A stretch of 64,000 bases of DNA, taken from NCBI GenBank assembly GCA_977020255.1, contig CDROCS010000480.1:744001-808000 (forward strand), in the 5' to 3' direction. The notes below the pieces were generated by a model. That model ran no database searches. It was not told the origin of the DNA and saw only the letters and a program-made list of their open reading frames with translations. The translations under genes were made by a program, and so were the position numbers. Positions 18,052-49,041 of the stretch are shown here, piece by piece (within the stretch, counting starts at the first letter, position 1; each line of letters starts with the position of its first letter). The stretch is from Obrimoposthia wandeli. Its lineage: Eukaryota.

Positions 18052-19949
18052 AAGTCAGAATATTGTATAAAAGTATTATTGCTTTAAAATTGTGACCTGT
18101 GAATTTCTATTTCAACGAATTTAAACGTGTTTAATATAAATTTCTATTGCATTTTTCTTTTTTTCTCAAAGATAATTGTATTTTTATTGCTTCTCTAATT
18201 TTTTAAAAGATAATGATTCTTCGTAGTTATTTTATTAATTTCCATTGGTTGACATAATTATATATTTTTCATAGCTAGATATGTGTTAGTGAAGATTTCA
18301 TATTTTTAATTTTAGGTCATCGTCAGAATATTATTATTACAATAACGAACAAATGATTTAAGTAAGGGAATGTCCCGAGTATTTCTGATTTTGGACATCT
18401 GGTGGCCACAAGGTTTGACGTTCGACACAAGGAGTAGATGTTCGACATATAAGACATTTTGTTCCTCTTAACGTATGACTTATTTTGACTCACCATAATG
18501 GATGACACATCATCCGTTGGACGTATTATGCATTATCATGCGCCGAAATTTACTTTAAAAGACATTAACTATTAAGGTTGTAGGTGGTTCTTCGAAGGTG
18601 GTTCTTCGAAGGTTAATCTTCAAGCGTCAAAACTTTTGACCTTTTTATTTCTCTACCTTTCAAAGTTATATATGATACACTTGTGCATACCTTGATCAGA
18701 CCTTCGACTTAATGGAAATATGAAATATGAAATAGAAATATGAATACAATTCAAGATTCATCGTTTTCTTACCTCTCTGACATATCCGTATTACCTTTAC
18801 TTGCATATTTATAACATTTTACAACAAAAGTTCTTTGTTAATCTTAAATTTTCACTAAAATTAAAAAGTGAAAAACTGTCAAAATATTCTTGGGTCTACA
18901 CAACATTTTTCAAATTTCTCATTTTTCCAATTCTTGAAAAATCTATAAACTGACACACATTACACACATTGAGAATCTTGAGAAACACTATTTATTTCTA
19001 ACCATCAAAAGTTTATAAAAATATTACTAAACTATGCTTACCTTTTTTAATTTTATAAACGCTTTCTTCCTTTAAACATTTATTAACATTTTTATTTTCA
19101 ATATACTTTCATCATTATCGACAATATTTTTAAGAAATCATTAACCCCTTGTAGAGGGTGTGTATCTTTTGAAACAAAGACATTGGATCCCTCAAAGTAT
19201 GACTCGTCGATAACTCATGTCTTCTGTTCCTAGAGAACAACGACTAGGACTCCTGTTCTTTTATATTTAGAAACCTATTTTCAAACGTATATTTCTTTGA
19301 ATATAAAGATCGTATTGTATTGACATGCGGTCTTCGTTAACGGATAGTCCTAACTTTTAAGGGTCTAAAACGAACTTAGTTATTAATATTATATTTAATA
19401 TTTTTAACTAGATAATATTATATTAATTATTCTTGGATATAACTTATAATTAGGTGCTAGATGATGCAACTGTTTATCATAAAAAACATTTTGTTTAAAT
19501 ACATTAATTTCATAATTATATTATTTAAACAAGAACAATTTAATTACATCAATGTATCTAGGTTATTATATATAATGTGTATTTTTAAATTCAATTAAAT
19601 GTATTAAAAATTATCTATTGTTAAATGAAGAATATTTGTTATACTGCATCATTAAAAATAACTATCCCACTTCTAAAATAATTCATGAAAATTAAGTTGT
19701 TTTTTACTTTCCTTCATTGAAACAAAGACAATAGGTTGAAACAAAGGCCACGACTCATGTCAATAGTGTCATTTATTTTGCAGGTAAGTTGCAATATGAG
19801 AAGAAGGTGTATATTTGGTAACAATGACATTACTCCCTCTCCTGATACTCAGATCATGACTCATTGATGACTCATGTTCTTTGTTGGGATTTAACAAAGT
19901 TATAATATATTCCTTCACGAACGAATGTGACGGTCTTAATCCATTACCG

Positions 19950-20676
19950 GCTGCTACTCCAACTGCAGATGATATGATGCTGCTGCTGAGCCCATATTCC
20001 AAAGGCCACATAATCCTGTGAGACAAGACAAGAGAATACTGGCGATGAATGAGTATGAATTATTTAGTTAATTCATACGTTTTAAAAAAAAAATCAGAAA
20101 CTTCAACTGGCCCGATCGGTGACTTTGGTGGAGAGGCTGCTGGAACTTGAAATTACTGTCAGCCAATGTATCCCGGAGATACCAAAGACTCAGCTGCAAT
20201 ACCTTGTGTCCTACGATAATATTCAGGTAAATTATTTAATATTAGGAAATTATATTTTATTATTTTTTTGATGTAGGAATTCTACCAGGTAGATGAGGTG
20301 CTGGAAGAGGCTACTACAATCATACCGACAGACCGGAAATATGCAGTGGTGCAGAAATCAAAAATGCACAAAGTAACGACGAAAACCGTCCAAACCTATA
20401 AGGTGAAGTTTCTGAAACAGGCAAACCAGCCAATAATAGAAGTAAATTATCTATATAAATATTTTTAAATTTATTTATTTTTAAAAAATCATGCAGGAAC
20501 CAGATCAGGTGCAGCTATTGGAGGAGTTTCTAGGAGAGGCTGCTTCAATCAAATCTAGGTGCAAGCAGCGGGTGGTGGTGCACAAGAAAAAGAGGAGAAG
20601 GTGTCAATTATACAGCAAGAGATTCTTTCTTCAACATGCTGATCTTGTACAAGAGGATCTTAGTCGCTTCTATTGA
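19950..20676 (+). pseudogene. Spliced Polinton accessory gene, homolog of 34787-35573
   Basis: Exons 20098-20226, 20277-20441 and 20497-20676; introns 20227-20276 and 20442-20496 (gtaaattat...ag). Confidence 0.75.
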
Positions 20677-29088: not shown

Positions 29089-30844
29089 TCTACCAAATAT
29101 TAAAATAATTAAAAAATTTGAATACTTTACTATGATTAACTAAAATTGTTTTCTAATATGTTTTCTTAATAAACAAGAAATTATTTAAAATAACTAAATT
29201 ATAAAATTTTCATTTTATTTCTTACAAATTTGTCAAAACCGATTACTCTCTGACAATCATAAGCGGTGCCGTTGGTCGGCGCATGACTCTAACAATGATA
29301 GCATAAATTTGTCAAGATTGTTGTAATCTTCGTAATATATCAGCTGTAATTCAATTTTCGTTGTATTGGTTATTTAATTTGGTCTGAATATGCTAACATG
29401 AATATATTCAATTATTCAATAATTATAAATATTCGATAAAATTATTTCAAAATGAATTAATTGAATTAATCAATATAATTTATATTAAGATAAAGTATTA
29501 CAATATTACAACAATTACAAGAAGCTTGAAAAATACACAGCAAAATTCATAAAATATCTTTGTGGCACATCTTACCTAACATTTCTACTAAATAAAATCC
29601 CTTTTGATAAAATTTTCAGAAAATATATAAGTTAATGAATCTTTTAAAACAAAACTACAGAAAATGAAAAAAGGATTAATGAATCATAAATTAGTTCCAT
29701 AAATTTGATTGTTTTCTCCTTTAATTTTTCAAAATCTTTTGGATTTATTAAATTTCGGGTGCATAATTATTTTTACTGATTCTTAAAACGATTATTTTTA
29801 TTTTATACTTTGTATAGGTTCAGAAACGAATAAATAAAATAACACATGAGCCAGAGGCTTCCTTAAAAATGTAATAAATCCAACCCAATACCCCATTATA
29901 TATATTATATACATATATATATATATATTATACAAGCAATCAATTTGAGATTCAATGCATTAATTAAACTTTTTTTGGTTATTTAGTTATTGATTATGAA
30001 ATTTATTTGAAATATAAAAAGTATACGAAGATTAAAATTTAGCTTTTATACTTAACCGATTGTCAAATACGTGAAGCGTATTTGTTGGAAACCAGAAGCT
30101 ACAAAAAATTAAAATGTAACAACATATTAGAATAGATAGTAATGAATTTTTGTACTGTACATTGATACATTTATACTAAAAACAAGCTGGGGAGCGCTCA
30201 GTATAATCAGCAGATCTTCGCATGGTATCTGTAGATATGCTGTAGGGAGTTTCTCTAATTAATAGTCTCATTAACCTTCATTCAATTTATTCAAGTGCCA
30301 GTGATCACTGCAGTCATTACCATACTGAAATTAGTTCATTTGTTTCCAGAGTTCCACCACGGAATTTACTTTATCACTGTCAGATGATTGCGTTATCTTT
30401 TAAGTCTAACGATAGTTTAATCAGATAACATTTAAGAACTATAATATCAAATAAATACTTAAATTCAACTCATTTTATTAAGGAAACGTTGATAGTAAAA
30501 TTTCAAAAGGCTGAAATGATTCTCAATAATCAAATCATTATTTTTAACATATAGTATGTTACTTATTAATGTTAGTCACTTATCTTTCATTAATCTAATA
30601 AGAAATATTTATAAAATATATTTTACTTTTTTTTATTTGAATTTGAAAAGACAACTTTCAGTTTTAGGATTTTTGAAGCCTTTCAATTTTTATCGATGTT
30701 TATTTGTTTGTAATTTTAACTCTTGATTTTGGCCATAACAAATGATGTTCTAATTAAATTCTAGCTTTGTAGCCTGAGAGGAAAAGATTACGTCAATTTC
30801 CTGATAATATATGGCAATTGTTATTTATTATGAAACTCATTCAG

Positions 30845-31127
30845 ATTCATCCTACAAATCAGTTCGTCTCGCAAGGACTCATTGCTGTTTTGGTCATTAC
30901 TTGTGATCGGAAACCGTACTTGAACCGTACATTGAAATCGCTTTTCCGTCATCATCCCGATCCTGAAAATCCATCGCTTAGTCGATTTCCGATTTATTTG
31001 TCCAACGGATGTCCAGAAACCGATATTGACAGTGTCTTCAATTTATTCAAAAGTCGACTAAGTGGGTATTTTAAATACCTCCCTAATACAGATTCCATTT
31101 TCAGAAAACTAGAAAGTGAGGTACCAG
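30845..31127 (+). CDS. MGAT1: MGAT1 exon 2
   Basis: Acceptor ttcag|; IAVLVITCDRKPYLNRTLKSL..FPIYLS; phase-1 donor gtagag at 31128. Confidence 0.85.
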
Positions 31128-32229
31128 GTAGAGACATTATGGAATTTTAGTTCACTAATTCATTCAGATTCAATGATGTTAGAACAATCAATGCTGCTTG
31201 GCAAGTTCAATTTCTTGATATTTTTATTTTGAAGTTTATGACACACATTTCATTGAAGTTATAAATTAATAAAATTCAAGCTAATAAAAATATATTTCAG
31301 TTAAAACGTCATTATGTAGTCATCATCATCTGAATTAGTGAATTATGTAATAAACTATTCAGTTTAAATGTCTTTAATTCTCGTTGGGATTGGTAATTCT
31401 AAGCAATGGTTGGCTGGTTTAAATGCAGATTCTAATGGGAAAATATTATTTTGTTTTTAGTTTTCTTTGTTTCCATTTCTTAATACTAGGAACTACAAAT
31501 GGTATGTCAACATTTTACCATTATACCACTTCTAAAAGGTATTGTAGGATAAGATGCATAAAAAATTTGGAGCCCATGCAATATCTTGCTCGTTTATCTT
31601 GTATTAGAAATGATTATAATAAACAATATTTTCTACTTCTAATATTTTTACCTTTTACAAACCAATTTAAAACAAAGGTAATATTTATAAATTGAAATTA
31701 AATTCATATTATATTTTTATTTATTATAAATAAAAATATAAAAACATCAAATACGAAATTTAGTCTATTTAAAACTTTCAGGAAATCTGAGAAACTCATG
31801 AAAAAAGTTATAAAAATGTTATAAAAGTTGCTTGTTTGTGGCTTTCATTCAAATCAGACCACAGCAGTGAAATCAAAATTGGATTCGCCTTATCAAAATG
31901 GCAAGGCGGTCAACAATATTTAATAATGTGTTTGTTATTTCAACAAACTAATTTGTTACACAAACCATTTATACAATATATATAAAATATTGATTTTATA
32001 TTTAATCTATATTATTCAATCAAGTATCATTTATTTAATCAAAGTAATTTAATTTTTTGGCTAAATCTTGAATAAAATATCATTCAAATTGCAATAAAAA
32101 TATATAAAGAGTTATGTAATCAGAAACCGGAAGTATCCTATCGAGAAAATCTGTTGATAAAATCCTTGTATACATGTATAAATATAGATTGTGTTTGACG
32201 AATCTGACTCTTTTGAATTATGTATACGA

Positions 32230-32760: not shown

Positions 32761-34408
32761 AAAGAAAAAATAGAGGTGTTGGCAAAGATTTTTTAGTGAA
32801 ATTGAAAGATATCTTCTATTTGATTCAAGAAATAAAAGAATGTATATCGAAATGTGTTTATTGTTCCAAAAGAAAAATTGAAACAAGCAGAACAAAAGAA
32901 ATATATATGCCTATAGTCAAATATATATTTTTCTTTCCACAAAACATAACTTAAAGTAATCAAAACAATAAGGTACAACAAAATATAATTATACCTGAAA
33001 TGTTCTTTAAAGTTCAGAAGTAATTACTTTTTTGTTTTATTGGGCTTTGAAATAATTTTAGTGCCAATCACGATGCTTGCTGTGTTGGAAAAAAATCCTT
33101 TAAAGAAAGAAATAACTTGATTATTTTTACAGTTTATGTTTACAGATTACGATTTTTGAAAATTTTAGAATGATAATAATTTATGCTTTAACATAACTGT
33201 TTTTTTTTTTTTTTAATTTTTATTAAATCACGAAATACGGTTTTTTAGTATGTTTCTTTTCTTTTTTAAATTGCTTGGTCGAGAATACTAGAAAATGAAT
33301 AACTAGTGTGAACATTAGTAAGTAATATCAGACATTACTTTACATTTAAGTAATGATTGTGATTGAGTCAATAATTCATGAACGAGACAGGGTTTTTTAG
33401 ATACGCGTCTAACCAATGAGAAGCTAAAAGAAACAAATGAAGTAGTCATGGATGAAATACCAATTATGTCTTCTGAAAACAAGCAAAATGCTAAAATATC
33501 CTCTTCATGACAAATGATTGTGCTAAATAATTGTTTACAGATGGCACAGCGATGAAAGTTTCTATAAAATAACCGATCAAAATTTTCAGACCTAATTTGA
33601 CAGCATGTATCGATGAAATAAAAAACTAAAGAAATACTTTTCTTGGCTAATTGGATTGCTCAATTTAACAGTGTAGAAGAAAGATTTAATCAAGAGTAGG
33701 TGGATGTGTCCGGTCTAATTTACCCCTCTCCGCCTCCCTCCGGAGGTACCACTGTCCTTTAAAACCGTGCATGTGTGTGGAGTGAAATTTCCCCCCAACA
33801 CTCAGAAAAACTAATTAACCCCTTTAAAATTGAAAATATCATAGTACTGCCCCAGAGTGAGGAAGTGCCTGAGAGGCCATCTAAGGGCCAACACGTGCCC
33901 TTCGACCCCGCGGTGGTCTGACGAGCAATACATATACAGGGGCGCGAAAAACCTTTCCTTATAAGAATTTATATCTAGATACATACAAAAGGCTAGTTTT
34001 TCTTACATGTAAACATCTCCCTCCAAACATGTACAGTCAAGAAAATATTTCTATTTTAAATCCAAAGATATACATGTATTCAATCATCAACCAAAATTAA
34101 GAAAATACTATAAATTATTTGAATAATACACTCTTATTGGACATTGAACTCAGTCAACGAAAACTTAAGAAAATAGTTCTATTTTCAAATAAAATATTTT
34201 TTTATCCAATGACATTCACGCATTCAAACGTAGTTAAAAAATTGAGAAAAGCCTACGGATTTTTCAAATAAATTATTTGAATAACCCACTCTCATTGGAC
34301 GACAAAAGAGGGTTAGTCTGTTGTTTTTTGTATATAAGGAAACCTCTTTTCATTATTTTTCATAAATCAAGAATCCCATTCTACAACAACGTTGACCTAG
34401 ACGAAGAG

Positions 34409-34690
34409 ATGGATGTTCAACTGTATGGGGATCTCTCTCCAGTACAGCAGCGAACACCACCACCGGCGCAGTATATTGACTTACTTAGTCAAGACTCGTC
34501 AGTGATGAGCGAAGGAGACGAAGGAGAAGCAGCAGCAAGATCGGAGCTGTTACTAGAAGAATCGCCATTGGCCAGCTCAACTCCGAGAGAAGAACCAATG
34601 AATGCGAGATGTGGGGTACAGAGATCCCAATATAGCGACCTGACTAGTCAGGATTCGATTGAGAATTGGGAAGACTGTACTCCCAGGTAA
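34409..34690 (+). CDS. Acidic/Pro-rich Polinton ORF
   Basis: ATG 34409 lies ~70 nt after GTATATAAG (34330-34338); low-complexity protein; may be the 5' part of the next gene. Confidence 0.45.
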   Translation: MDVQLYGDLSPVQQRTPPPAQYIDLLSQDSSVMSEGDEGEAAARSELLLEESPLASSTPREEPMNARCGVQRSQYSDLTSQDSIENWEDCTPR

Positions 34691-34786
34691 AACACAAAAC
34701 CCAGTCGTCCGGCAACTTTAGTAGTAGCAGCAAGGAGATCCAATCTCTTCGACAATTTTGAGGCGGCAATCAAACGCCCCTGGAAA

Positions 34787-35573
34787 TTGTCTCAGCCGGA
34801 GATAGTACTCGCACCAGACTCAGACGAGGAGCTGTTCACCGATGACGTACCGTCGGATGGGGAGGAGGACTTGACTCCATTCAGCGACGAATGGATACAG
34901 CCAATTATCTGGGCCCCAGGAGCCAACGAGTCGATGGTGGCAGAATTGGACGAAGACGAGTGGCACCTGTTCACCGACGATTGGGATGGTCTCACTCCCT
35001 CTGCAACTCCAACTCCGATAGCCGACAATACGATACCTGAACCGTTCAGAAGGCCGCAATCTCCGATACGTCCTGTTAGGAGAATAAAGGTGACGAATGA
35101 GGTTAGTCTATTAATTTATTTAAAATGTTTTTTTATTTCAATTTTAGAAACTTCAACTGGATTTGGCACCGTCACTGACCACGGTGGAGAGGCTGATTGA
35201 ACCGCAGTACTTGGCGAGTCAATGTAGCCAGAAGGATCCAAGGAGTGAGCAGCGATACCTACCGACTCCGGATAAAATTGAGGTAAATTATTATAAATTA
35301 GATAATAATTTTAATTATTCACATAGGAAGCCAAATTGGTGGAGGAAATTTGGGAGGAGGCAACTCTCAAACTACCCAAGGATAAAAAGCAACCGGTAGT
35401 GAGGAAACTGCGACGCCATCGTGTAAAAACTTCAACTGTCCACAAGAAGAAGGCCAAGTTGGTAAAACAGCCTAACTTGTCTGTCATTGAAGTAAATTAT
35501 TTATATGTTTAAATTTTATTGATATTTTTTATTGCAGGAACCAATACAATTAACTGAGGAGACATGGGGCTAA
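34787..35573 (+). CDS. Spliced acidic Polinton accessory gene (4 exons)
   Basis: Phase-0 GT-AG introns 35102-35147, 35283-35326 and 35492-35537 join stop-free exons; same architecture at 20050-20676. Confidence 0.75.
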
Positions 35574-35735
35574 ATTTCTCCTTTTTTACATTAAATTTTT
35601 TTAGGTTATAGATTTATTAAACTTTCATTTGATAAATAAAAATATATATCATTTAATTGAATGTGATTGGATTAAAAATATCTTAAATTTATATATATAT
35701 AGGTTCAAATTTATTAACCTCTTCATAATTAAAAA

Positions 35736-36086
35736 ATGGAATTCATTAAAATGAAAAGTCTGGTGACGAAGATTGAAGAAAACATCGTGAGAAATGAAAA
35801 GATAGAAGATTTAAGAAATAGTGTCTTCAATCAGAATCTGTACGCTGCTGTCGCGCCCGAGTGGAATCGTCGGGTGGAGATTCAGGACAGGCGGCTAGCA
35901 GAACGAAAACGGATCGTGGAGTGGAACAAAAAGATGGAATTGGAAAAAAAGAAACTAGAAAAAAAAAGAAAGGAGATGGAGGACAATCAGCGAGCTGCAA
36001 GAAAGAGAATCCTCCAGATTAAACCGGAAGATTTTTTGAATATTTTTTTTGTATTTATTGATTATTTTTGTTACATAATTGTCTAA
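35736..36086 (+). CDS. Coiled-coil-like Polinton ORF, unknown function
   Basis: Open 116 aa, E/K/R-rich heptad-like sequence. Confidence 0.5.
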   Translation: MEFIKMKSLVTKIEENIVRNEKIEDLRNSVFNQNLYAAVAPEWNRRVEIQDRRLAERKRIVEWNKKMELEKKKLEKKRKEMEDNQRAARKRILQIKPEDFLNIFFVFIDYFCYIIV

Positions 36087-36456
36087 ATATTTTACATAAT
36101 CATACTCAATATAAACAATTTTATATATAATATTTTTTTTAACATGGATAATAAAAATTGGAATAAATTATATATTAAATTATCTCCTGATTTAATGGAA
36201 GATTATAAAAAAAAATTACTTCTCAGAAAATAATACTTCTAAAATTGTTGGAGATAAAATATATAATTTAATTTTGAAATATTTAGGTATGTTTACATTT
36301 AATATAATTTATTTTAATATTCATAGGAGAATTGACAATATATACCAATCTTAACATGAAAAAATGAATCCTGAGTACTTTGTTATTTTAATAAATTTTT
36401 GATTAATAGTTTTTTTCGTTATAAACAACAGGATTTGCTTCAAATTAGGGTAATTA

Positions 36457-36950
36457 TGCAAGAATATATCATAGATTTTGAGGCTTTCATTAACTAAATT
36501 GGAGATTATATTATAAAAGAATTATGTATTATGGATGTATGCGACGTTTTTCATCCTTTGCATTTCATATTTCATATATATATCCCGTTTAGAAGTTTAG
36601 ATTATAAGAAAAAAATTACTAATTTATATCTAACTAATTATTTTCATTTATTAAAATGGAAAGGACATAAGGGTTTTTGTGAAATATGTATTTTCGATAC
36701 AATAAAATCTAATTTTTATATAGAAAATGGAATTTTTTATGTTTTAGATGAAATGGACGGCAAAAAGTATAAGAATTAAAAAAAATATTTTCCAAATTTG
36801 AGATTGAATACTTTAATATTTCACGTGATCATCTATTAAAAATTCCACAAAAATATTTGCTGTCCATATCGTGATCATGGTGACCACTGCGCATATAAAA
36901 AATGTTTAAGTCTATCTTATGATTACTTGACAGGTATATAAACAATTCTT
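36457..36950 (+). pseudogene. DEDD-exonuclease-like accessory gene
   Basis: MQEYIIDFEAF..KELCIMDV..CPYRDHGDHCAYKKC; stops and frameshifts; homolog of 4120-4611. Confidence 0.65.
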
Positions 36951-37183
36951 CTAATTAGAGAAATTCATTATTTACAAATTTTTCATCCAATTACAAATAA
37001 TCCTTTTAATTGGAGGAATAATAAATATTAAAAATAATATTATCAACTAATAACATATAAACAATCCTTCTCAGTTTCAATTCAATATTTTCATTCAATA
37101 AGAAAAGAGTATGTGTGCATATATTTTAGTATATAAGCAAACACCTTCTTAATTTAAATCCCCGACTATTTGAAATAATGACT

Positions 37184-37573
37184 ATGATAAGAAACTATAT
37201 TTTTTATTTCTTTATTAATATTTAATTTTAGATTACATGTAATCTGTTTCCAGCATATTGTGGTGCTTCAGCTCCGCATGGAGGAGAGTCGTGCATGGAG
37301 ATAATGTTTGCTTACTATCGGAAAAAGTCTCATGGGCTTCCATTTTTTGTCTGCCCCTTCTGCAGAACAATGGAGGAGAAGGAGTTTCGAGACTTCTTCG
37401 GTGAACATCGAGATCACCTATCCTGTTTCACGGCCAACAACAAGAAGAGAACTATCATGCAGTTGATGCGACATTCGCAGGCCGCTCCAGCTCCAATTCC
37501 AGTTGCAGTCGTTCAACCCGTTTACTGTCCTGCGATTGGTCCTTCTCTCCCATCGCCTCATCCCCTCAAATGA
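37184..37573 (+). CDS. Cys/His-rich putative Zn-binding ORF
   Basis: Exon from 37232 ITCNLFPAYC..SC..FFVCPFC..HRDH; start codon inferred at 37184 via a non-canonical intron. Confidence 0.55.
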
Positions 37574-37794
37574 ATAACAATGAGTGGATGAACGACATCT
37601 CCCAAGAAGATTTTGAGATGGAGCAGGGGAGCGACAACAGCTGGTTGGAGACCATCGAGGAATCCGATTTCGTCGAGTTAACAGACGACAGCTGGATGGA
37701 TTCTGTCAATGAAGAGGACTTCCAATCAGCTACAGTTGGATTGCCTTCATTAGGTATTTTTTATTATTATTTTTCTGATTATTTTTTAAAATTG

Positions 37795-37825
<31 letters not shown>

Positions 37826-40060
37826 TTTTTTATTCAGGAAATACCTTGATACAGTCGTCATCCGCTACGACATCTATGCATCCCTTTTGCGAGTGCCTAC
37901 ATCGATGTTTGCATGCCTTAGAGGTAATAATTTTAAAAAATATATTTATTTTTAATATATTTATTTCAGCAGATGCAGAAGCAGGGGTCTACAACAGCCG
38001 CTTCTTCGTCGGCAATGTCAGCTACTCCTACTTCAAATGCAGCATCTACTGTCTCATCATATGCGGTAGCATCTACTTCAGCTGCGATTGCCTCAACATC
38101 GGAAGCATCACCAATAGCAGCACCTTCCACATCAGCTGCGATTAATATAACTAGTTGTTTTCCTGTTCAATTAGGGGGAGGTTTGTAGGAAGAAAGAGGC
38201 GAGGCCAATTTCTTAATAAGGTCCCACCAAAAAAACGTAGAGAAAACGGTGCTACTATAGAGTATCACCTAAATAATAAATATGTTATAGTTAAGGTGCC
38301 ATTAGGAAATGAAATTTTATTAAACGTACGTGTAGATTCAAATATTGAAAATCTGTTAAAATCAGAAGTGACTAAATTAGGACAGGCTAAGGTTCAATTT
38401 TGCGCAACAGTGCAGTTTAAAAATATCAATGAGGAGACTAAAACTTGGGTAATTTCACATAGAGCAACTGTTTTCTATGATACTTTTGTAACTAAAATTG
38501 GAAGAAACCTTGATGAAAATATTGCTAATTATAGCGAGTTAAGTAGTGGATGGACTCTAATTAAAATTCACGATGTTAGCGTTGTTCTAACAAAGTTCAC
38601 TGACATGATATATCTTTCGGGGAGTTCATACATTCCTTCACCTAGATCTCTTCTACTTTCACGTTCCATTGTTAACGTACAAAACTGTGATAACCTTTGC
38701 TTTCTGTATAGCGTGTGGCCATCCTCAAAATAAATGTAATTATTGAGCATAGAGAGCGTGTCAGTAAATATACTCCTTTTTTAAATGAATTGCAGTATCA
38801 TGGAATAGATTTTCCTGTTAAATTAACTGCGATATCAAGATTTGAACATCTTAATAACTTGAGTATTAATGTATTCAAATATAATACTGATATCCCAGTT
38901 ATTGTAACAGATGATGAAATTTTAAAATATCTTTTTGTAGATGTAATTTATAGGAGCAAAAATAAGTGGACTCAGGTCAACTTAATTTTGCTCGAACATA
39001 ATAAAAAATTATATTATGCTGCAATTCCCAATTTAGATCGTCTTCTAAATTTAGATAATGGAGCCTTACCGGTTAGGATAAGGTGTAAGTGGTGTCATAT
39101 ATGTTTACATGGATTCCAATCCGAGCTCTCTTACAGCAAACATCTGACACTATGTTCACTAAATCCTGATGATAATACGCTAAATAGCATGCCCAAGGAT
39201 AAGGATTTAAAATTCAGGGATTTGGCAAAATGCATACTCGTGGAATTCAGGGTGAATGCTGATTTTGAGTCAATTCTAGCATTGCACGACCAGTATGAGA
39301 GTATTCACCTACCGGCTTCGACAGGACTACTATTCTTAGGCCCCAATATTACATAGTATCATAAATTTTCCGGTCCAAATTGTATTTTAGATTTTATGTT
39401 AAAATTAGAAGAATTAGGAACAACAATTGTCAAACACTGGTATGATCTTAATGCTCATCAAGCAATGATCATGACAGGCATAGACTGGGTTAATTTTAAT
39501 TATTGTAGATTATATTATTTGTGTGGAACCCAGTCTAAGTTGGTCAGAGATCACGATCATGTTACGGGGCGATACTTGGGAGCGGCGTGCAACCTCTGTA
39601 ACCTTGGCCGTCGTCTCCCTAAAAAACCACGCATTCCCATCGTGTTTCATAATCTCAAAGGATATGATTTGCATCATATACTTAAATACGCGTTGGGTAC
39701 ATTATGCTCTTAGGAAATTTCATGTATACCTCAAACTTCAGATAAATATTTATCTTTAACTGCATATACTGAATTCTGCAGTTTAAGATTCATAGATTCT
39801 CTGCAGTTTTTGAGTGGTTCTTTAAAAAATTTAACGGCATCTTTAAATGCATGGCCAATCACACAGTCAGTGTTCCCAGCTTCGGTTAACGATAAGGGGA
39901 TTTTTTAAATTTTAGATCCCTATGGCACCTTGATATGGCACTTTTTGTTATTTCAATACTTTTTTTAGGTTGGGCCTTATCTTTGCTGACAGATCTCATT
40001 GTGATTTTGTGTTTAATAAATGTATTAAAAAAAATTCGTCTTATGTCTTTTATGTCTTTT
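37570..40060 (+). pseudogene. pPolB with spliced low-complexity N-terminal exons; frameshifted and 3'-truncated
   Basis: Introns 37754-37837 and 37924-37969; SGSSYIPSP..IVNVQNCDNLCF, VRDHDHVTGRYLGAACNLCNL, VFHNLKGYDLH, LRFIDSLQFLSGSL. Catalytic palm not seen. Confidence 0.9.
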
Positions 40061-40109
40061 ATTCTTATATTTTTTAAGGATTTAAAAAATAATTCAAAAT
40101 AAAACATTA

Positions 40110-41100
40110 AAAATATTTATTTTTATGACACACTAATCGTTTTGCAACGATAACCATAAAATACATAAATATCTACAGTTTCGGATCCTGATTGTATCTT
40201 GCTGTATAATACTCTTCTTCGTCCTTTTTAAATAGTCGAAACAAGTTTGTGTGGATAATACATTGCAAGTGGATCAAATACATGTATTGTCCACTCTAAC
40301 ACAGCGGTTCCCAATCTTTCTGGTGCGGTGACCCCTTGATAACATTTGCCAAGTTGCAGTAACCCCAAGGATAAAACAATTTGTTATATTTTAACTACAA
40401 AAAATGTATTGGCACAATGTTTTTTATTTACAAATTTGCAATAATTGAATCATAATAATTTTATCGACACAACAATTTGTTATATTTTAACTACAAAAAA
40501 GTTCGAATTGCGAAAACCAAAAAGCGTCAGTGAGAAAGCTGTGCTTGTTTCTTTCTTGCCAGATCTGAAATCCTTGGAGGAGTCTTTGAAAGAGCATAAC
40601 GCAGATCATCTTCTGCAACATGTCTGCTCCTGTATTTAGATTTGATAACCAATAAGCTTGAAAAGCTTGTTTCACAAAGATATGTTGTTGAAAAAGGAAG
40701 AATCAGGCGCAAAACTGTTTTTATTAATTTTATCTAACTTAGTAGAATATGGGTTAATTGACTATTATAATTAGAGAATAGTGATATTACCGCGAGAATA
40801 CAACATAAGGACATTCGGTATCATAAAACAACTTTTTAAAAGGCCTTGCTGCCTTAAGCGACTCCAGACAAATTATCAGGCGACCCCAGTTGGGATCGCG
40901 ACCCACAGGTTGGGAACTGTTGCTCTAACATAAATAGCTATCCAAAGTTCTCCTGGTAAATTCGAGGTATGAGTATTGATAATGTAACCTCCAGATTGAA
41001 AAAATGGGATCATATCAATAGGATAAACTCCATTGAAATTATCACTCAGGAACTTCTCTGCTGATTCTTGTACTTGTACTGAACTAAATAAAAATTAATA
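40110..41100 (-). pseudogene. Adenain-like protease split by a hAT insertion
   Basis: FNGVYPIDMIP..YIINTHTSNLPGELWIAIYV [insertion 40302-40922] TIHVFDPLAMYYP; catalytic His replaced (GEHW to GELW). Confidence 0.85.
40302..40922 (-). mobile_element. Non-autonomous hAT (Charlie/Buster-type) element
   Basis: TIRs cagcggttcccaa / ttgggaactgttg; 8-bp TSD CTCTAACA (40294-40301, 40923-40930); hAT dimerisation C-terminus LPFSTTYLCETSFS..EDDLR..KQAQLSH. Confidence 0.95.
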
Positions 41101-41116
41101 AATGTCTTACTTCATT

Positions 41117-42348
41117 CTATAATATGACAGTTCTGTTTTTATTGATTTTTATTTCCGAATCAAATACTCCGTAAATAAGCACCGTAGTAGGATGTGTTAA
41201 AGCTGCATTGAACTTTATTTCTAGTCGTAAATTTCCATTCTTTGGTAGTTGGCATTGGTTTATATCAAAGTCTGGTGCCAAAACAAATGTGAAGAATGGG
41301 CAGCTACTTTTAAACTCAGTGAAATAAATACCATTGTTTATATTTTTATCTAGTTGACCCAAATTCCGAATAATAGATTGCGTATAAGCCAAAGCATAAG
41401 CGTTACCTTCGAAATCTGTTTTATATGTTTCACGATAATCATTATTTCTTGAAAGTGTCACTGAACCTACATTAAGATTGTCAAATTGAGTTACATCTGT
41501 CGTATAATTTCCTACAAACTTTGCAGTTTTTTTTTGAAAAGAAATTAAAACGAATTTCGGTAATCTTACATCACCAAAATTTTGATCATTATTAAAAGCT
41601 TGTGTACCCGTACTTAAAGAATAGGATATAAGTTTAGTTTCTCTAATAGGATAACAAGCATTGTTTTTTTCCATTCCTATATTATGTGCCATTAAAACTA
41701 GTTGCTCGGTTTTAACTCTTCGAACATACAATTTTGCATCCAAAATATCAAGTCTAGGTTTTAGAACGTCTGTGCTTATCAAAGAAAAATTATATTTATT
41801 ACGCTTCAAACAGAGATGTACATTAACACTGGGAATTAAATATTTCAGTTGTTCAAAGAAATTCAATTTCAAAGACCCACACATTTCGTAAGCTTTAGAA
41901 CCTGCATTCCATTCTTTGCGAATTGCGACCGTTTTATCATAACTAATGGTTGCCAAATTAGTATTTTGAGTATCAGTACTATAATTCAATAGACTTTTAA
42001 TCAAAGCTTTATGAGCATAGAAAGATTTCCACCTTCAATTTTGACATTATTAAGAGTAACAATGGCATCACTAAATAAAGAATTAAAGATATAATTTACA
42101 GGTGTTACATCGGCATTTTCATCTAAATTAGTACCATCCCGATTTAATACTTTTATTTGAACATAAAGCAAAGTATCATTCAAATCTAAATACTTGCTAT
42201 TGGAACCATTAATATTAAATTCTAAATCGGTTAAAGTGGTTCCTGAAACTGAGTTAACTAGAAATATTTATTCAAAGGAAGCATTATCTACAACTACTTG
42301 TGGAAGTGGTTTATCAAAAATACACAATTCGGTTTTGGCGCAACTCAT
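41117..42348 (-). pseudogene. Major capsid protein (double jelly-roll, PY)
   Basis: MSCAKTELCIFDK..LEFNINGSNSKYLDLNDT..HKALIKSLLNY..RLPKFVLI..GNLRLEIKF..VLIYGVFD; one stop and one frameshift near 42001. Confidence 0.93.
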
Positions 42349-42398
42349 TTTGCAAATATTGTTCCTTCAACTTTCTTACGTTTGTTTATATTAATTTT

Positions 42399-42722
42399 TT
42401 ACTTATTTTTACGTTTAAATCCACTACCTCCTTGGCTTTTATTTGATTTACATTTTCTTATCAAATTAGCAACTTCAGGTAAAACATTATCAAGTTCATC
42501 AAGCGCATGCTTCTTAAAAGTTGGTATTAGTTTATTGTCATTAGATGAAAGGTAATCCTTTCCTAATTTTGATATAAATCGCCCGAGTCTCTTTAAAAGA
42601 GGAAAGGCAAATCTACTTAATGTTCTAAGCCAGCCAGATCCATATTGCTTACCAAAAAAATATGTTAATTCACCACATTGTTGGCTTTGACTATAAGCTT
42701 CAATTATTTCTGGATTCGCCAT
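42399..42722 (-). CDS. Conserved Polinton core-like basic protein
   Basis: Intact 107 aa; KQYGSGWLRTLSRFAFPLL; basic C-terminus after QGGSG. Confidence 0.75.
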   Translation of the reverse strand: MANPEIIEAYSQSQQCGELTYFFGKQYGSGWLRTLSRFAFPLLKRLGRFISKLGKDYLSSNDNKLIPTFKKHALDELDNVLPEVANLIRKCKSNKSQGGSGFKRKNK

Positions 42723-43329
42723 TTTGTTTTCTTAAATGTATTGTTAAACTTGTCTTGGCCCCGTACGTGAAATCTATTGGTTGTCCGGAATCATCTATAA
42801 TATTTACTTCAATATTGTTTATAGAAAAGAGAGCAACTGGAAGATACATTGGTTGATCTATACACATAACGACAGCGTCCCCATCTTTGTTTCATTTTTA
42901 AGTATCCCGTCTATTACGAGATAATGTTTGTTCACTATCAAAACTGAATTGAAGAGCTTCTTTTTCAGTTTCAAAGTTAATTTTAATAACTTTAAGATAT
43001 TTTAATAGATTTTTAAATCTGATTTTGTTATTTTCAAATATTACTTTCACTTGTTTATCTATACAATTGTAATATAATTGTCCTTTAATATCAAACCCGA
43101 TCACAACTTCAGTTGTTTTTTCATGATCAAATTCGTTTGTAAACAAAATATGTGAGTTTTTTCTGATAGTAATTGGAGAATAACAAAAGGAAAATTCTGT
43201 TAAAGCCGCTTCCCATTCTCCTTGTAGATTTATAAGGTTTTCCCAATCGATAATAAAGTTACTAGCGTCATTATCTGGTTGAGTCTTTGGGCATCCGTTA
43301 CTAGGTAAAACCATATACATAGACTTCAT
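42720..43329 (-). pseudogene. Minor capsid / penton (PX)
   Basis: MYMVLPSNG..LINLQGEWEAALTEFSF; C-terminal MYLPVA..IEVNIIDDSGQPI; shorter than the 6090-7115 copy. Confidence 0.85.
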
Positions 43330-44354
43330 ATTATATTAGATGCTGATATCCAAGTTGGGTCTGAATAACCATGCCATTTAACAAAGTATTGTTTATGTTT
43401 GCCGGCAACCTTAGATTTTAATATTTTTTGAATACGGAAAACGCTAGGTTTATTTGATATTACTTGTAGTTCTTGCTCGTAAAATTTACTGTGAATGATA
43501 TTATTGTCAGCATCTTTAATAGTATACATTATTGGATTACTCTTTTGATCAATTTTACTTATACAAAATATTTCATCGCTTCAATTCTGATCAAAGCTTT
43601 TAATAAACAGAGTAGAGCTAATTTTCAAATTTCGAACATATTTGTTTTTCTTATATTTAGCTTTTTTAATATTTTCTTTTTTATTCCTGTCCATCCAAAT
43701 ATACATAGAGTTTTTATTAGTAACATCAACAGGTTTCATTCCCTTGAGAACTCTATGTTCAGAGTGATTATTTGCATGTATTATTTTAGTTAAAACTTGG
43801 ATCCATTTTTTATTTCCTTCTTTTGTGAAATACTTTTTTATTCGATCTCTTAAAGTACGATTAAATCTGTCTACTACTGCTGCTTTGTATTGTGAAAACA
43901 CAGAGTAGTGATTTATATTATTTTGTTTAAATAATGATTGAACTTGCTTATTATAAAATTCTTTTCCTAAATCAGTTTGCACATTTTGTGGAATGTCCTC
44001 TTTTAATATTTCTTTAATGGCTTCAAGCATAGCTATTGAAGACTTTGCTTAAACTGGAATTGCACGAGCAAATCTGCTAAATACATCAATACATGTTAAA
44101 ATATATCGATATCCCTTATTAATGGAAGAATATGGGATCATCTCCATCAAATCCATTTGCCATAAATTATTATGACCGCTGGTTTTGTAAGCTCAAGTTG
44201 GAAACCTTCTTCTTGTCGGCTTGTTCAGACTGTATGCTAACTGATCGCTCAGCCATTTCTGCGTTTTCTTGTAATTCTGTTTTATTCTTTTTGCTAATTT
44301 TGAAACTCCTGTGTAGCCAATTGGATCTTATGGATTGAACCATATCTTCTCCAT
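43326..44354 (-). pseudogene. RVE c-integrase with chromodomain
   Basis: QLDLADM-like region (NGFDGDDPI), VQTDLGKEFYN, AAVVDRFNRTLR, QYFVKWHGYSDPTWI; stops. Confidence 0.93.
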
Positions 44355-44439
44355 TACAACAATTTGAATAGAAAGAAATTTTAATTTAGGTAAAGAAAGG
44401 TTAGCACCCATATCTTTAGGTTATTTTTGAAATAATTGT

Positions 44440-44766
44440 TTATGAACGTGTCGCAGCTATAATACTACTGATAATTGAAGCAACAACTGTAATAACAGCC
44501 CATATGAAACCACCATTATGTTTAAGAATAATATTTCGTTTCCTTTTTTTACTTTTTACATTAGCAATATCTAGAGATTTTCTATATTTCTTTAATACAT
44601 TTTTTCGTTTTCCAATTTTTACTTGACCCAAAACTATATTATACAAAACTTCCCATAAATCATCTACAACAAAAGATGGAAAGGCTTTAAGAATAATCAT
44701 TCTCTTATGAGAAGAAGCTTTGACCAAAGCTTTAAAATAGGGTATGCTTCTTTGTATTTTCTTCAT
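44440..44766 (-). CDS. Conserved small Polinton protein with C-terminal GGF plus amphipathic/hydrophobic tail
   Basis: ..EVLYNIVLG..LKKYRKSL..KRNIILKHNGGFIWAVITVVASIISSII; intact 108 aa; between ATPase and INT. Confidence 0.7.
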   Translation of the reverse strand: MKKIQRSIPYFKALVKASSHKRMIILKAFPSFVVDDLWEVLYNIVLGQVKIGKRKNVLKKYRKSLDIANVKSKKRKRNIILKHNGGFIWAVITVVASIISSIIAATRS

Positions 44767-44945
44767 TTTAATAAAAAAGGTTCAATTTGAATATTGTTTA
44801 TATTCGAAGCCATTTAAGTTTTCTTTTATTTCTAACTACAGATTTGAATAATTTATTCACTTCTTTTTTCTTAATGATTCTTTTTTTTGATTTCTTAGGC
44901 TTTACTTTACGTTTTACTATCAACTTCGTAAAAGGCATTGCAAAT

Positions 44946-45592
44946 TTATTTTTTATGATTGTTTTCTATTTGTTTATAAACAGTTACTCCCTTAGAATTA
45001 AATATGTCAGTTAAAACACGTAAATCATCTGGGCAAGCTTGTGTAAAGTCAATAAATATATACCCATGTGCTTGTTTAGCAGCATCGTGGAATGAATCAA
45101 CTAGAAAGTTCTTATTTTGGGGAAATACCTGTCTGACCACGAAATCTACAACTGTTTGAGCTCTAGGATTTTTAAATAAAACTAAGTAATGTACATTAAG
45201 ATTTCTAGTTCTATGGTGACCTCCTTGGTGAAAAAGATTTTGAGTGATAAATATAACTGTTACTTCACGATGTCTTGCAATCTTCGTAAATAAATTATTA
45301 AAGTCCGATTCCTTATGAGTCTCCTGATAAAAATCATCAATTATTATTACATCTTCTTTTTCAATCTTTCATACCAATTTGCATCAAATCCTTCAATAAA
45401 TTGTATTCCCTTCAACTTGCAAACTTCTGTTTTGGTTAATCCGCTTTCCCCTCCTCCACCATCATGCCAATAAATATTTTTGAAACTAGATTTGAAAAGA
45501 GATTCATTTTGCAACAATCTACATACGAAATGTGTCTTTCCACTTCCACTGGGACCAACTATTTGAAATACAGCATTATTATTTAGCTCCAT
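44946..45592 (-). pseudogene. A32/FtsK-HerA-family packaging ATPase
   Basis: Walker A GPSGSGKT, Walker B IIIDD, RHREVTVIFITQNLF, HGYIFIDF; one frameshift near 45355. Confidence 0.95.
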
Positions 45593-45929
45593 TGCATATA
45601 CTCTTTCATTTTTAATATTGTTTATATTATCATAGAAGTTTCCTATTTGAAATGTACAATGTTAGAGCTATTGTAGATGAAATACAAAAATTAATTAATG
45701 AATATTTGGCTATAATTTTATTTATTTGTGTACGATTTCTAAATTCTCGAATAACGTGTGATCTAACCAATATTTCAATGTTATCTCTTGTTATATCATT
45801 ATTTTTTAATTCTGATAAAAAATTTTACCCCTAATTTTTCCAGAAAATATTTCGTCGACAAGACGATCTACTTCATTGTCTGTATTTATAGTATTATTCA
45901 TTTGAAACAATAAGTTTAAATGGGTTTGT

Positions 45930-46429
45930 TTATAGAAAAGATAACAAGATGTAATAAGATATATTTTCTAAAATCAAATCAACAATGTCTGGATAATCAA
46001 AATTTTTCAATACCAATATCATAACTTTACCACTGGAAAATATATTTACACATAGCGGTTTAAACTTCAAATAACTGAGAGCAGGAAAAATTTCTGGTTC
46101 AAACATGCATTTTTCTTTCATTTTCTCTGCAGTTTTAAAAAGATTTATCTGTTTCCCGAGATTAGCCGAAATCGTGATTGATTGTATTGCAGTGATTTGA
46201 ATTCCACATGGTAAATTGAACCCAAGCATTGGTATTTTGTATCCCATAACACGACAATTTCCTAAAGAATTCAATATGAAAATAAAATAAAAAACTAACC
46301 TGTAGGAAAAATAACAACTGTTAAATTGTCAAACATTTCTACATATTGTCTCGGCTTCCATTCATTAAATGGTAAGTACGAAACATCATCTTCTGTTCTA
46401 CCTTTATAATTTATATTTACGAGTTTCAT
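45930..46429 (-). CDS. TATA-binding protein (TBP)-like gene, 2 exons, 153 aa
   Basis: Exons 46429-46300 and 46261-45930, 38-nt GT-AG intron. Repeat 1 LVNIN..WKPRQY..TVVIFPTGNCRVMG; repeat 2 IQSIT..FEPEIFPALSY..VNIFSSGKVMIL. Confidence 0.88.
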
Positions 46430-46544
46430 TAGACTGAAATTGTATTCTGTAAAATCTTCTTTATATATGTCTGAACCTGCTTTTTTATTGCACGTTTCTT
46501 GTAATTATCTTGCAAACCTATTATAATTGGATGATATATTTCTT

Positions 46545-46647
46545 CCAATCAATTTTGATTTTTAATATAGATTTAGTCCAATCAAATTCAATGCTTTAGT
46601 TATATTAACCAATGAGATTCATGTCTTTGTTAGAAATTAGTATAAAA
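46545..46647 (+). promoter_or_regulatory. Candidate bidirectional promoter: three CCAAT boxes plus TATAAAA
   Basis: CCAAT at 46545, 46578 and 46609; TATAAAA at 46641; between the divergent TBP-like gene and ORF 46679. Confidence 0.5.
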
Positions 46648-46678
46648 GAATGTGCCATTGGAGGACAAATCACAGTAA

Positions 46679-47155: not shown

Positions 47156-48749
47156 CTTTTGTGTGTAATAAATTGTAATCGGTTTTACTATGTTTCTTTC
47201 ATTTAATAATCAGTTTTATTTGTATCCTATTTGTATCTTATGTGTATTTTTTTATAAACATTGTTTTTAATCAGTTTCCTTATTTTAGAATGGATATGAG
47301 ATGTGTAGGAAATTTTTATTATCCAGAAGAATTTCAAAAGGAAAACTATGTAATATATTAAAGAGGTATCAAATTATACGAGTTATGAATCCTGTGAAAA
47401 TATCAAAAGTGGAGAATAAATATCTCATCGAAATTTTAACAACATCTGATATTGATCAATTGAAACATATTTTAGGATTTTAATATTCCTGATTATGTAT
47501 ATGAATGAAATTGTTTCCAGCTTGAAACTGATCCCTATCTGGCTTTTAAAGATAATCTAGGATATTTGATTGCTCCAATTCTAGATGAAGAACTATGGAA
47601 TATCTCAATACGTCTCAATTGATATTTTGCTGATGACTGGAAAATGCAGCCACTTTGGACTTTGAGTGAAGCCAATATGTTGTTTTATGTTTAATAAATA
47701 TTTTGAAAAATAATTTTGACTCATATTTTGGTTTTTTCTCCTCTAAATTATATAGATCTGACCTAATTTTTCTTTTATAAATCTGACCTAAATATTTAAC
47801 ATAAACATGTAGTAATCTAAAATCTTTCTTAAAAATAGTAGTAATATATTCACATATTATTTTAAATCTCATCTGCGATAATCCACCGGGGCCAATATGG
47901 ATTCACGTGGTCTTCTCTAATCACTTTTAAGATATGCGGTAAATTTCAAAGTAAAATAAAAAAATATGTGGGGGGACCCCCCTCCTATTCGATTATTTTT
48001 CAATTTTTCCCTACACACATAGACGAAATTTCACTCCACACACATGCACGGTTTTAAATGACTGTGGTATCCTCCCGGGGGAGGAGAAGGGGGTGGATTA
48101 GACCGGACACATCCACCTACTATCAAGATATCGAAGTGTGAATGGAAAAGGAATAATTTCTTTAATAGCTGTTCAAGAAAATAATGATAAAATAAAGTCG
48201 ATTAGAAATTTTTCTGACAGTTAAGTCAATTTGCAATCAGTAATATCAAAGATTTCGTAAAGAAATACAGCACCGGTGAGAAAAACTATAACATACATTC
48301 CCAACACTGGATTTGAAAAATACCTATATGCAATTTCATGTTTAAATATCAGGACATCGAATTTAAAATTAATTTACTTTCTCACAAGGCTGAAATTTGA
48401 ATTTAACTGTAACAAAGATCACGAGTCAGGTATTAAATAAGGTACTAACATGACCATATAGGCCAAAATAAATTTTGATCAAATGTTGAAGTTATGCTTA
48501 CTCAGCTCATAACAAACGCACAAACAATATTAATTAATAATAATTAATTATCAACACGGATATTTTAATGGTGCCCGAGTTCGAGTAATATTGTAGAAAA
48601 CACTAGCAGTGATTAAAATTAATTTTATAACCTTTTTATGATTTAACTAAACAATTCGAACTCAGTGTAATGCAGTTGTATAAGAAATTGTTTTATTTGA
48701 CAAATATTCTCATTTATTAAATGATGAAAAACGTTTTTCAAATTTGCAG

Positions 48750-49041
48750 GATATAGTAAAGTCGCTGATCATTACAATGGAGCGTTAAACTGGCTTTTTC
48801 AGAAGAACATGGAGAAATACTCAGTTTTAGACAGTAAAATGACACATATCTTCAATCCATCTGCATTGAAAGCTGTGATCATTGTTGAAGACGATATAGA
48901 AGTGTCACCAGACTTCTTTCAGTATTTTAATAGTACATATCCAATTCTAGAAACTGACAAAACCCTCTACTGTGTCTCAGCTTGGAATGACAATGGTCGC
49001 GCAAATCTCACAGATTCCAAGGGTGCAGATCGAATGTTCAG
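48750..49041 (+). CDS. MGAT1: MGAT1 exon 3
   Basis: (G)YSKVADHY..VIIVEDDIEVSPDFFQYF..CVSAWNDNG..RMFR; phase-1 acceptor and phase-2 donor fit the neighbouring exons. Confidence 0.95.

What the first reader, a model, noticed from the sequence alone, without database searches (positions are those of the whole stretch)
34787..35573. Polinton accessory gene with three conserved spliceosomal mini-introns
Three phase-0 introns of 44-46 nt join stop-free exons. The diverged homolog at 20050-20676 has introns at the same positions, the same gtaaattat donor and an identical 165-nt middle exon, while its intron sequences differ. The structural and enzymatic genes of the same elements show no clear introns. 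Inference: an early, host-like spliced gene class, as in adenovirus early regions. The acidic, Trp/Phe-containing N-terminus looks like a transactivation domain.
Basis: partly seen in the sequence, partly recalled or inferred. Interest (0 to 1): 0.72.

Follow-up and report, generated by a model that had tools for sequence, protein, structure and literature searches.

The report
Spliced genes of an animal-type Polinton
A virus-like jumping element present in hundreds of decayed copies carries host-style mini-introns in its leftmost orphan gene and also in its TBP-like gene and likely its polymerase leader, so such elements likely rely on host splicing and are mis-annotated when read as intronless.

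Summary
The three GT..AG phase-0 mini-introns (46, 44, 46 nt) are there and are very likely real introns. Sister copies (653 exact matches to one exon-intron junction) show a five-exon gene of about 650 codons next to the left terminal repeat. It has an acidic exon 1 with two YIDL motifs, exon-sized basic repeats that were duplicated with their introns, and a basic tail. All five exons show purifying selection. No homolog was found outside this genome.

The 'spliced accessory versus intronless core' contrast is only half right. ATPase, integrase and the putative capsid genes lack introns. The polymerase frame is fed by a four-exon leader, and the TBP-like gene has a 38-nt intron. That intron is shown by collinear intronless homologs and sits at the same codon in an independent metagenomic Polinton.

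Best guess for function: a nuclear regulator that binds SUMO and activates or de-silences the element (about 45%, untested). No RNA data were available. Intron-bearing cargo beside the left repeat is already published for nematode Mavericks, and this scan noted a spliced polymerase leader before, in another genome.

The parts
33689..33694 (+). 6-bp target-site duplication, left (repeated at 48122-48127)
33695..33791 (+). Left terminal inverted repeat of the 14.4-kb, internally deleted Polinton (33695-48121)
34331..34338 (+). TATA box about 40 nt before the coding start
   Evidence: TATA in 15 of 17 and a start codon in 14 of 17 copies whose anchor was found
34373..35101 (+). Exon 1, acidic, about 243 codons; in this copy the start codon is absent and a stop lies at 34688-34690
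   Evidence: pN/pS 0.44 against 0.99 and 1.15 in the other forward frames
34472..34486 (+). First YIDL(L/T) SIM-like motif; the second lies at 34631-34645 and is altered in this copy
   Evidence: 32 of 41 and 34 of 43 copies; 98th percentile of conservation
34802..34990 (+). Acidic stretch with FxxxW and WxLF motifs (candidate activation domain)
   Evidence: FxxxW in 41 of 45 copies, 93rd percentile; WxLF only 33rd percentile
35102..35147 (+). Intron 1, 46 nt, phase 0
   Evidence: donor GT 58 of 60, acceptor AG 55 of 62 rows
35148..35282 (+). Exon 2, 135 nt
   Evidence: pN/pS 0.62; 12 stops in frame against 114 and 147
35283..35326 (+). Intron 2, 44 nt, phase 0
   Evidence: GT 50 of 56, AG 40 of 50 rows
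35327..35491 (+). Exon 3, 165 nt, first basic repeat unit
35492..35537 (+). Intron 3, 46 nt, phase 0
   Evidence: GT 59 of 67, AG 34 of 38 rows; lost precisely in one copy, L164
35538..35584 (+). Remnant of exon 4 (177 nt in fuller copies; second basic repeat)
35584..35605 (.). Junction of a deletion of about 1.15 kb that removes the rest of exon 4, intron 4 and exon 5
   Evidence: loose ends at 35584
19900..20620 (+). Diverged, decayed second copy: introns 20054-20097, 20227-20276, 20442-20496; exons of 129 and 165 nt
36287..36326 (+). Candidate 40-nt intron in a small AT-rich gene starting near 36146
   Evidence: GT..AG at 40 nt in 17 of 23 rows; frame not tested
37129..38199 (+). Spliced leader of the polymerase: TATA 37130; three-codon exon 37178-37186; intron 37187-37231 (donor damaged in this copy); Cys-rich and acidic exon 37232-37753; intron 37754-37837; short exon 37838-37923; intron 37924-37969; Ser/Thr/Ala linker from 37970 running into the polymerase frame in sister copies
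45933..46429 (-). TBP-like gene: exon 1 46429-46300, phase-1 intron 46299-46262 (38 nt), exon 2 46261-45933
48025..48121 (-). Right terminal inverted repeat

Best explanation
The stretch is a broken copy of the leftmost gene of a high-copy Polinton, a five-exon gene whose host-sized GT..AG introns are very likely removed by the host spliceosome and whose product is likely a nuclear regulator that would bind SUMO-marked chromatin and switch the element on. Shown by sequence: element ends and target-site duplication, TATA box, exon layout, purifying selection on all five exons, exon 4 and the start of exon 5 as repeats of one basic unit of 55-59 residues (exon 3 more weakly), and introns in the TBP-like gene of the same element. 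Inferred: splicing of this gene itself (about 0.93, no RNA seen); growth of the gene by duplication of exon-plus-intron units, which phase-0 introns allow (about 0.8); a spliced leader on the polymerase (about 0.85); nuclear location from basic NLS-like runs (about 0.8); SUMO binding through the YIDL motifs, activation through the acidic FxxxW stretch and DNA contact through the basic repeats and the KKPGRPKK tail (about 0.45 together); expression early in the element's cycle (about 0.5).
For: Frame-blind segmentation of 80 loci gave 104 of 135 internal exons as multiples of three (modes 135, 153, 165, 168, 177 nt), while intron lengths are not (51, 68, 89 of 208 for remainders 0, 1, 2), so the frame is lost without splicing. 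pN/pS is 0.44 (exon 1), 0.62 (exon 2), 0.50 (exon 4) and 0.53 (exon 5) in the spliced frame against 0.79-1.15 in the other forward frames. Exon 4 matches the start of exon 5 (hhalign probability 98) and exon 3 weakly (probability 22, E 2e-4); L010 has a tandem exon 3. Three intronless TBP-like homologs are collinear across the window's 38-nt intron, and an independent Polinton contig, L161, has a 40-nt intron of different sequence in the same glycine codon. The polymerase linker varies from 137 to 430 nt yet keeps the frame in 17 of 20 copies. Host SUMO introns are 39 and 40 nt. 74 of 80 gene loci adjoin other parts of the element. The two YIDL motifs rank at the 98th percentile of conservation.
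Against: No RNA run was available, so splicing and expression are unseen. GT/AG retention of 80-97% only equals overall copy identity and is no sign of selection by itself; copies are related, so counts are not independent. Exon 3's pN/pS of 0.30 is biased because it was the search query, and the antisense frame that shares third positions gives similarly low ratios (0.41-0.59). YIDLT misses the SIM-b class given in PMC3631770 at position 1 (Tyr), and the IVLAP motif is poorly conserved (25th percentile). The tail has PGRP, never RGRP (0 of 46), so it is not a canonical AT-hook. No homolog or family gives a function. The leader's short exon is off-frame in 9 of 27 copies. No copy with all exons intact was seen among those examined.
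Confidence: 0.5

Rival explanations
1. The gene is spliced, but its product is a DNA-binding structural or replication protein (like adenovirus core protein V or a DNA-coating protein) whose basic repeats compact or coat the genome and whose acidic half chaperones them.
For: Repeat units are 18-24% Lys/Arg and vary in number; the acidic N-terminus could neutralise them.
Against: It has its own TATA promoter at the far left, outside the virion module, which already holds two small basic genes also present in L161 (their pVII/pX-like labels are recalled). The best-conserved features are short linear motifs.
Confidence: 0.25
2. [quoted passage not shown]
For: Same place and look as published cargo: GC-rich, intron-bearing, next to the left repeat (10.1101/2022.07.12.499685, passages); host-like intron sizes; no homolog in other elements searched.
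Against: 74 of 80 loci adjoin element sequence and no intact stand-alone host paralog was seen (only the best 150 hits per search were scored); it is kept under selection across several subfamilies; the polymerase leader and TBP-like gene are spliced too.
Confidence: 0.17
3. The AT-rich stretches are not introns but spacers or decayed inserts, and the 'exons' are unrelated short frames or one dead gene.
For: No RNA junctions seen; every copy examined is damaged; intron interiors are about as conserved as exons within the family.
Against: Exon lengths in multiples of three, frame-specific selection, protein repeats resuming right after each AG, no start codon at the head of the internal exons, and the homology-shown TBP intron in the same element.
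Confidence: 0.04

Closest known systems
Polintons/Mavericks (adintoviruses, Eupolintoviridae); Starrett et al. 2021, PMC8502044
   Same: Terminal inverted repeats, 6-bp target-site duplication, protein-primed polymerase, rve integrase, packaging-type ATPase, accessory genes upstream of the polymerase; a TBP-like gene is named in one figure legend for related viruses of non-animal datasets.
   Different: The passages and section read describe no spliced genes. This orphan lacks the LxCxE and CxxC motifs of their 'Oncoid' genes.
Intron-bearing cargo of nematode Mavericks (wasp, krma); Widen et al., 10.1101/2022.07.12.499685
   Same: GC-rich, intron-containing gene beside the left terminal repeat; integrase, ATPase and capsid genes intronless.
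   Different: There the cargo is a recognisable host-type enzyme and the polymerase is called intronless. Here the gene is an orphan built of exon repeats, and the polymerase leader and TBP-like gene are spliced too.
Introners in dinoflagellate polinton-like elements; PMC12166617
   Same: Spliceosomal introns inside polinton-like proviruses.
   Different: Those are recent insertions of intron-making transposons. These introns are 38-50 nt AT-rich minimal introns at fixed positions, one shared with an element whose proteins are about 55-75% identical.
Adenovirus E1A and E2B transcription units
   Same: Leftmost TATA-driven spliced gene with an acidic N-terminus (E1A; recalled); terminal protein and polymerase mRNAs that use upstream exons (PMC11304566, passages; the three-residue leader of human adenovirus is recalled).
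   Different: No sequence similarity found, no LxCxE, no zinc finger in this gene; the polymerase leader here adds about 300 residues, not a few.
Viral SIM-bearing regulators (HSV ICP0, KSHV K-bZIP and LANA); PMC12751080
   Same: Short hydrophobic SIM-like cores flanked by Ser and acidic residues in a disordered region.
   Different: No RING or bZIP domain; motif match is imperfect and binding is untested.

Membership tests
Polinton/Maverick | Terminal inverted repeats starting AG, with a 6-bp target-site duplication | tested here: met
   97-nt arms, element 33695-48121, 6-bp duplication on both sides (the defining values are recalled)
Polinton/Maverick | Protein-primed family B polymerase | tested here: met
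   PF03175 E 9e-26 in sister copy L061, with an endonuclease VII/HNH insert
Polinton/Maverick | Retroviral-type integrase | tested here: met
   PF00665 E 1.5e-12 in L064; under the cut-off in the window's fragment
Polinton/Maverick | Packaging ATPase | tested here: inconclusive
   P-loop ORF of about 230 codons, 70-75% identical to L161; only weak AAA matches in Pfam
Polinton/Maverick | Double jelly-roll major and single jelly-roll minor capsid proteins; adenovirus-type protease | tested here: inconclusive
   ORFs of fitting size and order are conserved with L161, but Pfam gave only Capsid_N E 0.038 in a sister family, PDB nothing, and Peptidase_C5 E 0.002 under the cut-off in a neighbouring element; the labels rest on gene order and recall
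Major (U2) spliceosomal intron | GT..AG ends, pyrimidine before AG, removal restores one reading frame | tested here: met
Major (U2) spliceosomal intron | Removed from RNA | not testable with these tools
   no RNA holder listed; the four runs laid cover introns like exons
Oncoid / E1A-type oncoprotein | LxCxE motif with neighbouring paired CxxC | tested here: not met
   exon 1: LxCxE 0 of 61, CxxC 1 of 61 copies; exons 2-5 were read by eye only
SIM-b SUMO-interacting motif | [PILVM]-[ILVM]-D-L-T (PMC3631770) | tested here: inconclusive
   YIDLT in 30 of 43 copies fits four of five positions; Tyr at position 1 is outside that class; wider definitions that allow aromatics are recalled only
AT-hook | RGRP core | tested here: not met
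   RGRP 0 of 46, PGRP 21 of 46 copies
Captured host cargo | A host paralog outside elements | tested here: inconclusive
   74 of 80 loci adjoin element parts; 6 show no link within 1.5 kb; only top hits were scored

The most novel reading that the evidence does not exclude
A lineage of Polintons has an adenovirus-like, splicing-dependent regulatory layer: a leftmost multi-SIM, acidic regulator that counters SUMO-based silencing and grows by exon duplication, a polymerase whose N-terminus comes from a four-exon leader, and its own TBP-like factor with an old conserved intron. Such elements must be transcribed by host RNA polymerase II in the nucleus, and intron-blind annotation has hidden this gene class.
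Probability: 0.35. Interest if true: 0.75.

Novelty: new variant of a known kind. Interest (0 to 1): 0.55.

Why it matters
Polintons are usually annotated as plain open frames; one paper read here justifies that with the statement that viral genes lack introns (PMC9356565, passage). Fixed introns in a polymerase leader and a TBP-like gene mean that their N-termini and whole regulatory genes are being missed, and that these elements use the host's nuclear transcription and splicing. How Polintons control their own expression and escape silencing is an open question, and this gene offers a concrete candidate with testable motifs.

Tried and rejected
RNA evidence: no RNA holder listed. Four runs of one sample cover introns like exons and show no joint at a splice site among those listed (203 and 2 joints were not shown). 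This is no evidence on expression.

Homolog searches for the orphan, all blank: exon 1 against longer proteins; repeat profile against longer proteins (8000 candidates scored); exon-1 profile against 1.84 billion representatives; viral contigs; phage records; Pfam and NCBIfam; PDB (best E 0.16). Proteins of these lengths only, and spliced genes are poorly called in such databases, so blanks are weak. The Atlas gave no answer.

Structure: the repeat model was low-confidence (pLDDT 64, pTM 0.18), so no fold search was run. The exon-5 job had not finished at submission.

Processed copies: 1 of 4 junction probes hit, once (L164, intron 3 alone lost), against 653 intron-keeping matches. The AG|G repeat at both intron ends lets a microhomology deletion give the same product, so I count it as weak. 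The intron-free look of the second copy in C2765 comes from deletions that do not follow splice sites; rejected as a retrocopy.

Exon 2 as a member of the repeat family: not supported. Host intron lengths: automatic calling was noisy; I kept hand-checked cases only.

Full report
Observation. The three introns are present at 35102-35147, 35283-35326 and 35492-35537, all GT..AG, phase 0 and 11-13% G+C, between exons of 135 and 165 nt. The homolog near 20050 has the same layout, with introns of 44-45, 50 and 55 nt; its first donor has lost a base and its exon 1 is frameshifted. Its 165-nt exon matches in length only (56% nucleotide, 45% amino acid). Introns 2 and 3 (68%, 67%) are no more diverged than exons 2 and 3 (65%, 57%), though their chance level is higher.

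Setting. The gene begins about 680 nt inside the left end of a 14.4-kb element (33695-48121) with 97-nt inverted repeats and a 6-bp target-site duplication. Sister copies carry a protein-primed polymerase with an HNH-type insert and an rve integrase. The ATPase, capsid and protease labels rest on motif, size, gene order and recall; tools gave only weak matches. The family is large: 150 of 150 scored hits for exon 3 and 653 exact matches to one 22-letter exon-intron pattern. The host is a eukaryote with a 1.35-Gb AT-rich assembly, probably an animal; I did not identify it.

The whole gene. In 80 loci (the top 30 hits of each of two searches plus 20 picked from the second list; both window copies included), fuller copies show five exons: an acidic exon 1 of about 243 codons behind a TATA box, exon 2 (135 nt), exon 3 (153, 165 or 168 nt), exon 4 (177 nt) and a last exon of about 250 codons. 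Exon 4 and the start of exon 5 are repeats (hhalign probability 98); exon 3 is a weaker relative (probability 22, E 2e-4); exon 2 is not. L010 has a tandem exon 3; of 80 loci, 20, 24, 33 and 3 show one to four units, partly through deletions and, in L036 and L037, duplication of a larger block. Phase-0 introns let such units be copied in frame, which explains the shared GTAAAT donors (inference).

Are they introns? Using exon-only anchors, donors read GT in 58 of 60, 50 of 56 and 59 of 67 rows, and acceptors AG in 55 of 62, 40 of 50 and 34 of 38. That only equals overall copy identity and copies are related, so it shows the source elements had these sites, not selection. Stronger: frame-blind segmentation gave 104 of 135 internal exons as multiples of three while intron lengths were not, and pN/pS in the spliced frame is 0.44 (0.37-0.52) for exon 1, 0.62 (0.45-0.87) for exon 2, 0.50 (0.39-0.65) for exon 4 and 0.53 (0.45-0.63) for exon 5, against 0.79-1.15 in the other forward frames (codon bootstrap, pairs not independent, only the more diverged pairs used). 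Exon 3's 0.30 is biased by the search. The antisense frame sharing third positions is similarly low but has more stops (88 against 12 in exon 2). Intron length near the gene (median 46; 75% of 208 within 38-50 nt) sits at the host's short end: SUMO introns of 39 and 40 nt and chaperonin introns of 42, 43, 90 and 142-586 nt (a small hand-picked set, not a distribution). One copy has lost intron 3 exactly, which is weak evidence because microhomology could do the same. No RNA was available.

Other genes are spliced too. The TBP-like gene has a 38-nt phase-1 intron at 46299-46262 inside the motif IFPTG-NCRVMG, GT..AG in 7 of 7 copies where the anchor was found. Three homologs from public metagenome gene calls run straight through this point, as do three of four metagenome loci. 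The fourth, L161, is a related Polinton with the same gene order and 55-75% identical ATPase, integrase and putative capsid, and has a 40-nt intron of different sequence in the same glycine codon. This is the best independent proof. L161 does not reach the left end, so it says nothing on the orphan. The polymerase frame has no Met in its first 140 or so codons and is preceded by a TATA box, a three-codon exon, a Cys-rich and acidic exon, an 87-nt exon and a Ser/Thr/Ala linker. Donors are GT in 26 of 30, 27 of 32 and 26 of 29; acceptors AG in 34 of 36, 30 of 30 and 22 of 25. The linker keeps the polymerase frame in 17 of 20 copies despite lengths of 137-430 nt and exon 2 of the leader fits in 23 of 30, but the short exon is off-frame in 9 of 27. 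I saw this leader before consulting earlier notes, which report a like leader in another genome. ATPase, integrase, both putative capsid genes and two small basic genes show no intron-sized insertion against L161.

Function. No homolog, family or fold was found. The protein looks disordered, acidic in front (30% Asp/Glu in the Trp/Phe stretch) and basic behind (18-24% Lys/Arg in the repeats). The best-conserved five-residue words of exon 1 are two YIDL(L/T) motifs followed by Ser and acidic residues (98th percentile; one such motif arises in 0.7% of shuffles). They fit four of five positions of the SIM-b class (PMC3631770, passages), and viral regulators often carry SIMs (PMC12751080, passages). 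FxxxW is also conserved (41 of 45), in line with an acidic activation domain (recalled from p53). LxCxE and CxxC, which define Oncoid genes (PMC8502044, section 3.2 read), are absent from exon 1. The tail has NLS-like runs and PGRP (21 of 46) but no RGRP. I commit to a nuclear regulator that binds SUMO-marked chromatin and activates or de-silences the element, at about 0.45; a DNA-coating protein (0.25) and captured cargo (0.17) are the main rivals.

What is known. Nematode Mavericks carry intron-bearing cargo beside the left repeat while the core genes, polymerase included, are called intronless (10.1101/2022.07.12.499685, passages). Introners invade polinton-like elements of dinoflagellates (PMC12166617, passages), and group I introns occur in protist elements (PMC12220804, passages). 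A TBP-like gene is named in a figure legend of PMC8502044. Adenoviral terminal protein and polymerase use upstream exons (PMC11304566, passages). PMC10748475 with its preprint and 10.64898/2026.07.28.741278 (passages) mention no spliced Polinton genes in the passages found. Searches listed no report of fixed spliceosomal introns in a Polinton polymerase or TBP-like gene. Subscription journals, Repbase reports, the 2024 review PMC11426020 (not held) and all supplements were not seen and may contain this.

Caveats. Two near-identical chaperonin loci differ by frameshifts, so some breaks in copies may be assembly errors. Verdict: a real feature, a new variant of a known kind; interest 0.55.

Noticed in passing
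window 37129-38199: Four-exon spliced leader feeding the polymerase frame, with a three-codon first exon, a Cys/His-rich domain and repeated acidic Trp motifs.
   Followed up: yes
window 45933-46429 (-) and 13339-13611 (-): TBP-like genes in two elements; the first has an intron shared in position with metagenome contig L161. Only the second TBP repeat matches Pfam.
   Followed up: yes
window 36146-36370: Small AT-rich gene with a candidate 40-nt intron (GT..AG in 17 of 23 rows), followed by an exonuclease-like frame near 36457 (label recalled, no Pfam match).
   Followed up: partly
L164:1495-1530 (G000:C1820): One copy lacks intron 3 exactly while keeping introns 1, 2 and 4.
   Followed up: yes
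window 17473-18051, 30773-31150, 48728-49066, 52880-53446: Four fragments of GNT-I family glycosyltransferase genes interleaved with Polinton relics; possibly an expanded host family.
   Followed up: no
window 11545-11893: Tandem units, each with a GT..AG stretch of about 40 nt and an Asp/Glu-rich frame; may be another spliced acidic repeat gene.
   Followed up: no
window 58800-60153 (-): Decayed reverse-transcriptase element (RVT_1, E 1.5e-18).
   Followed up: no
L136-L149: The assembly holds many intronless GroEL genes that look bacterial, so it probably includes microbial contigs.
   Followed up: partly
G000 contigs C2592, C2050, C1456, C4682: Tandem arrays of ubiquitin-like units at about 270-nt spacing with open frames of about 89 codons, unlike ordinary polyubiquitin.
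   Followed up: no
L062, L064, L066: Polintons often lie next to or inside each other, including a second family about 70% identical in DNA.
   Followed up: partly
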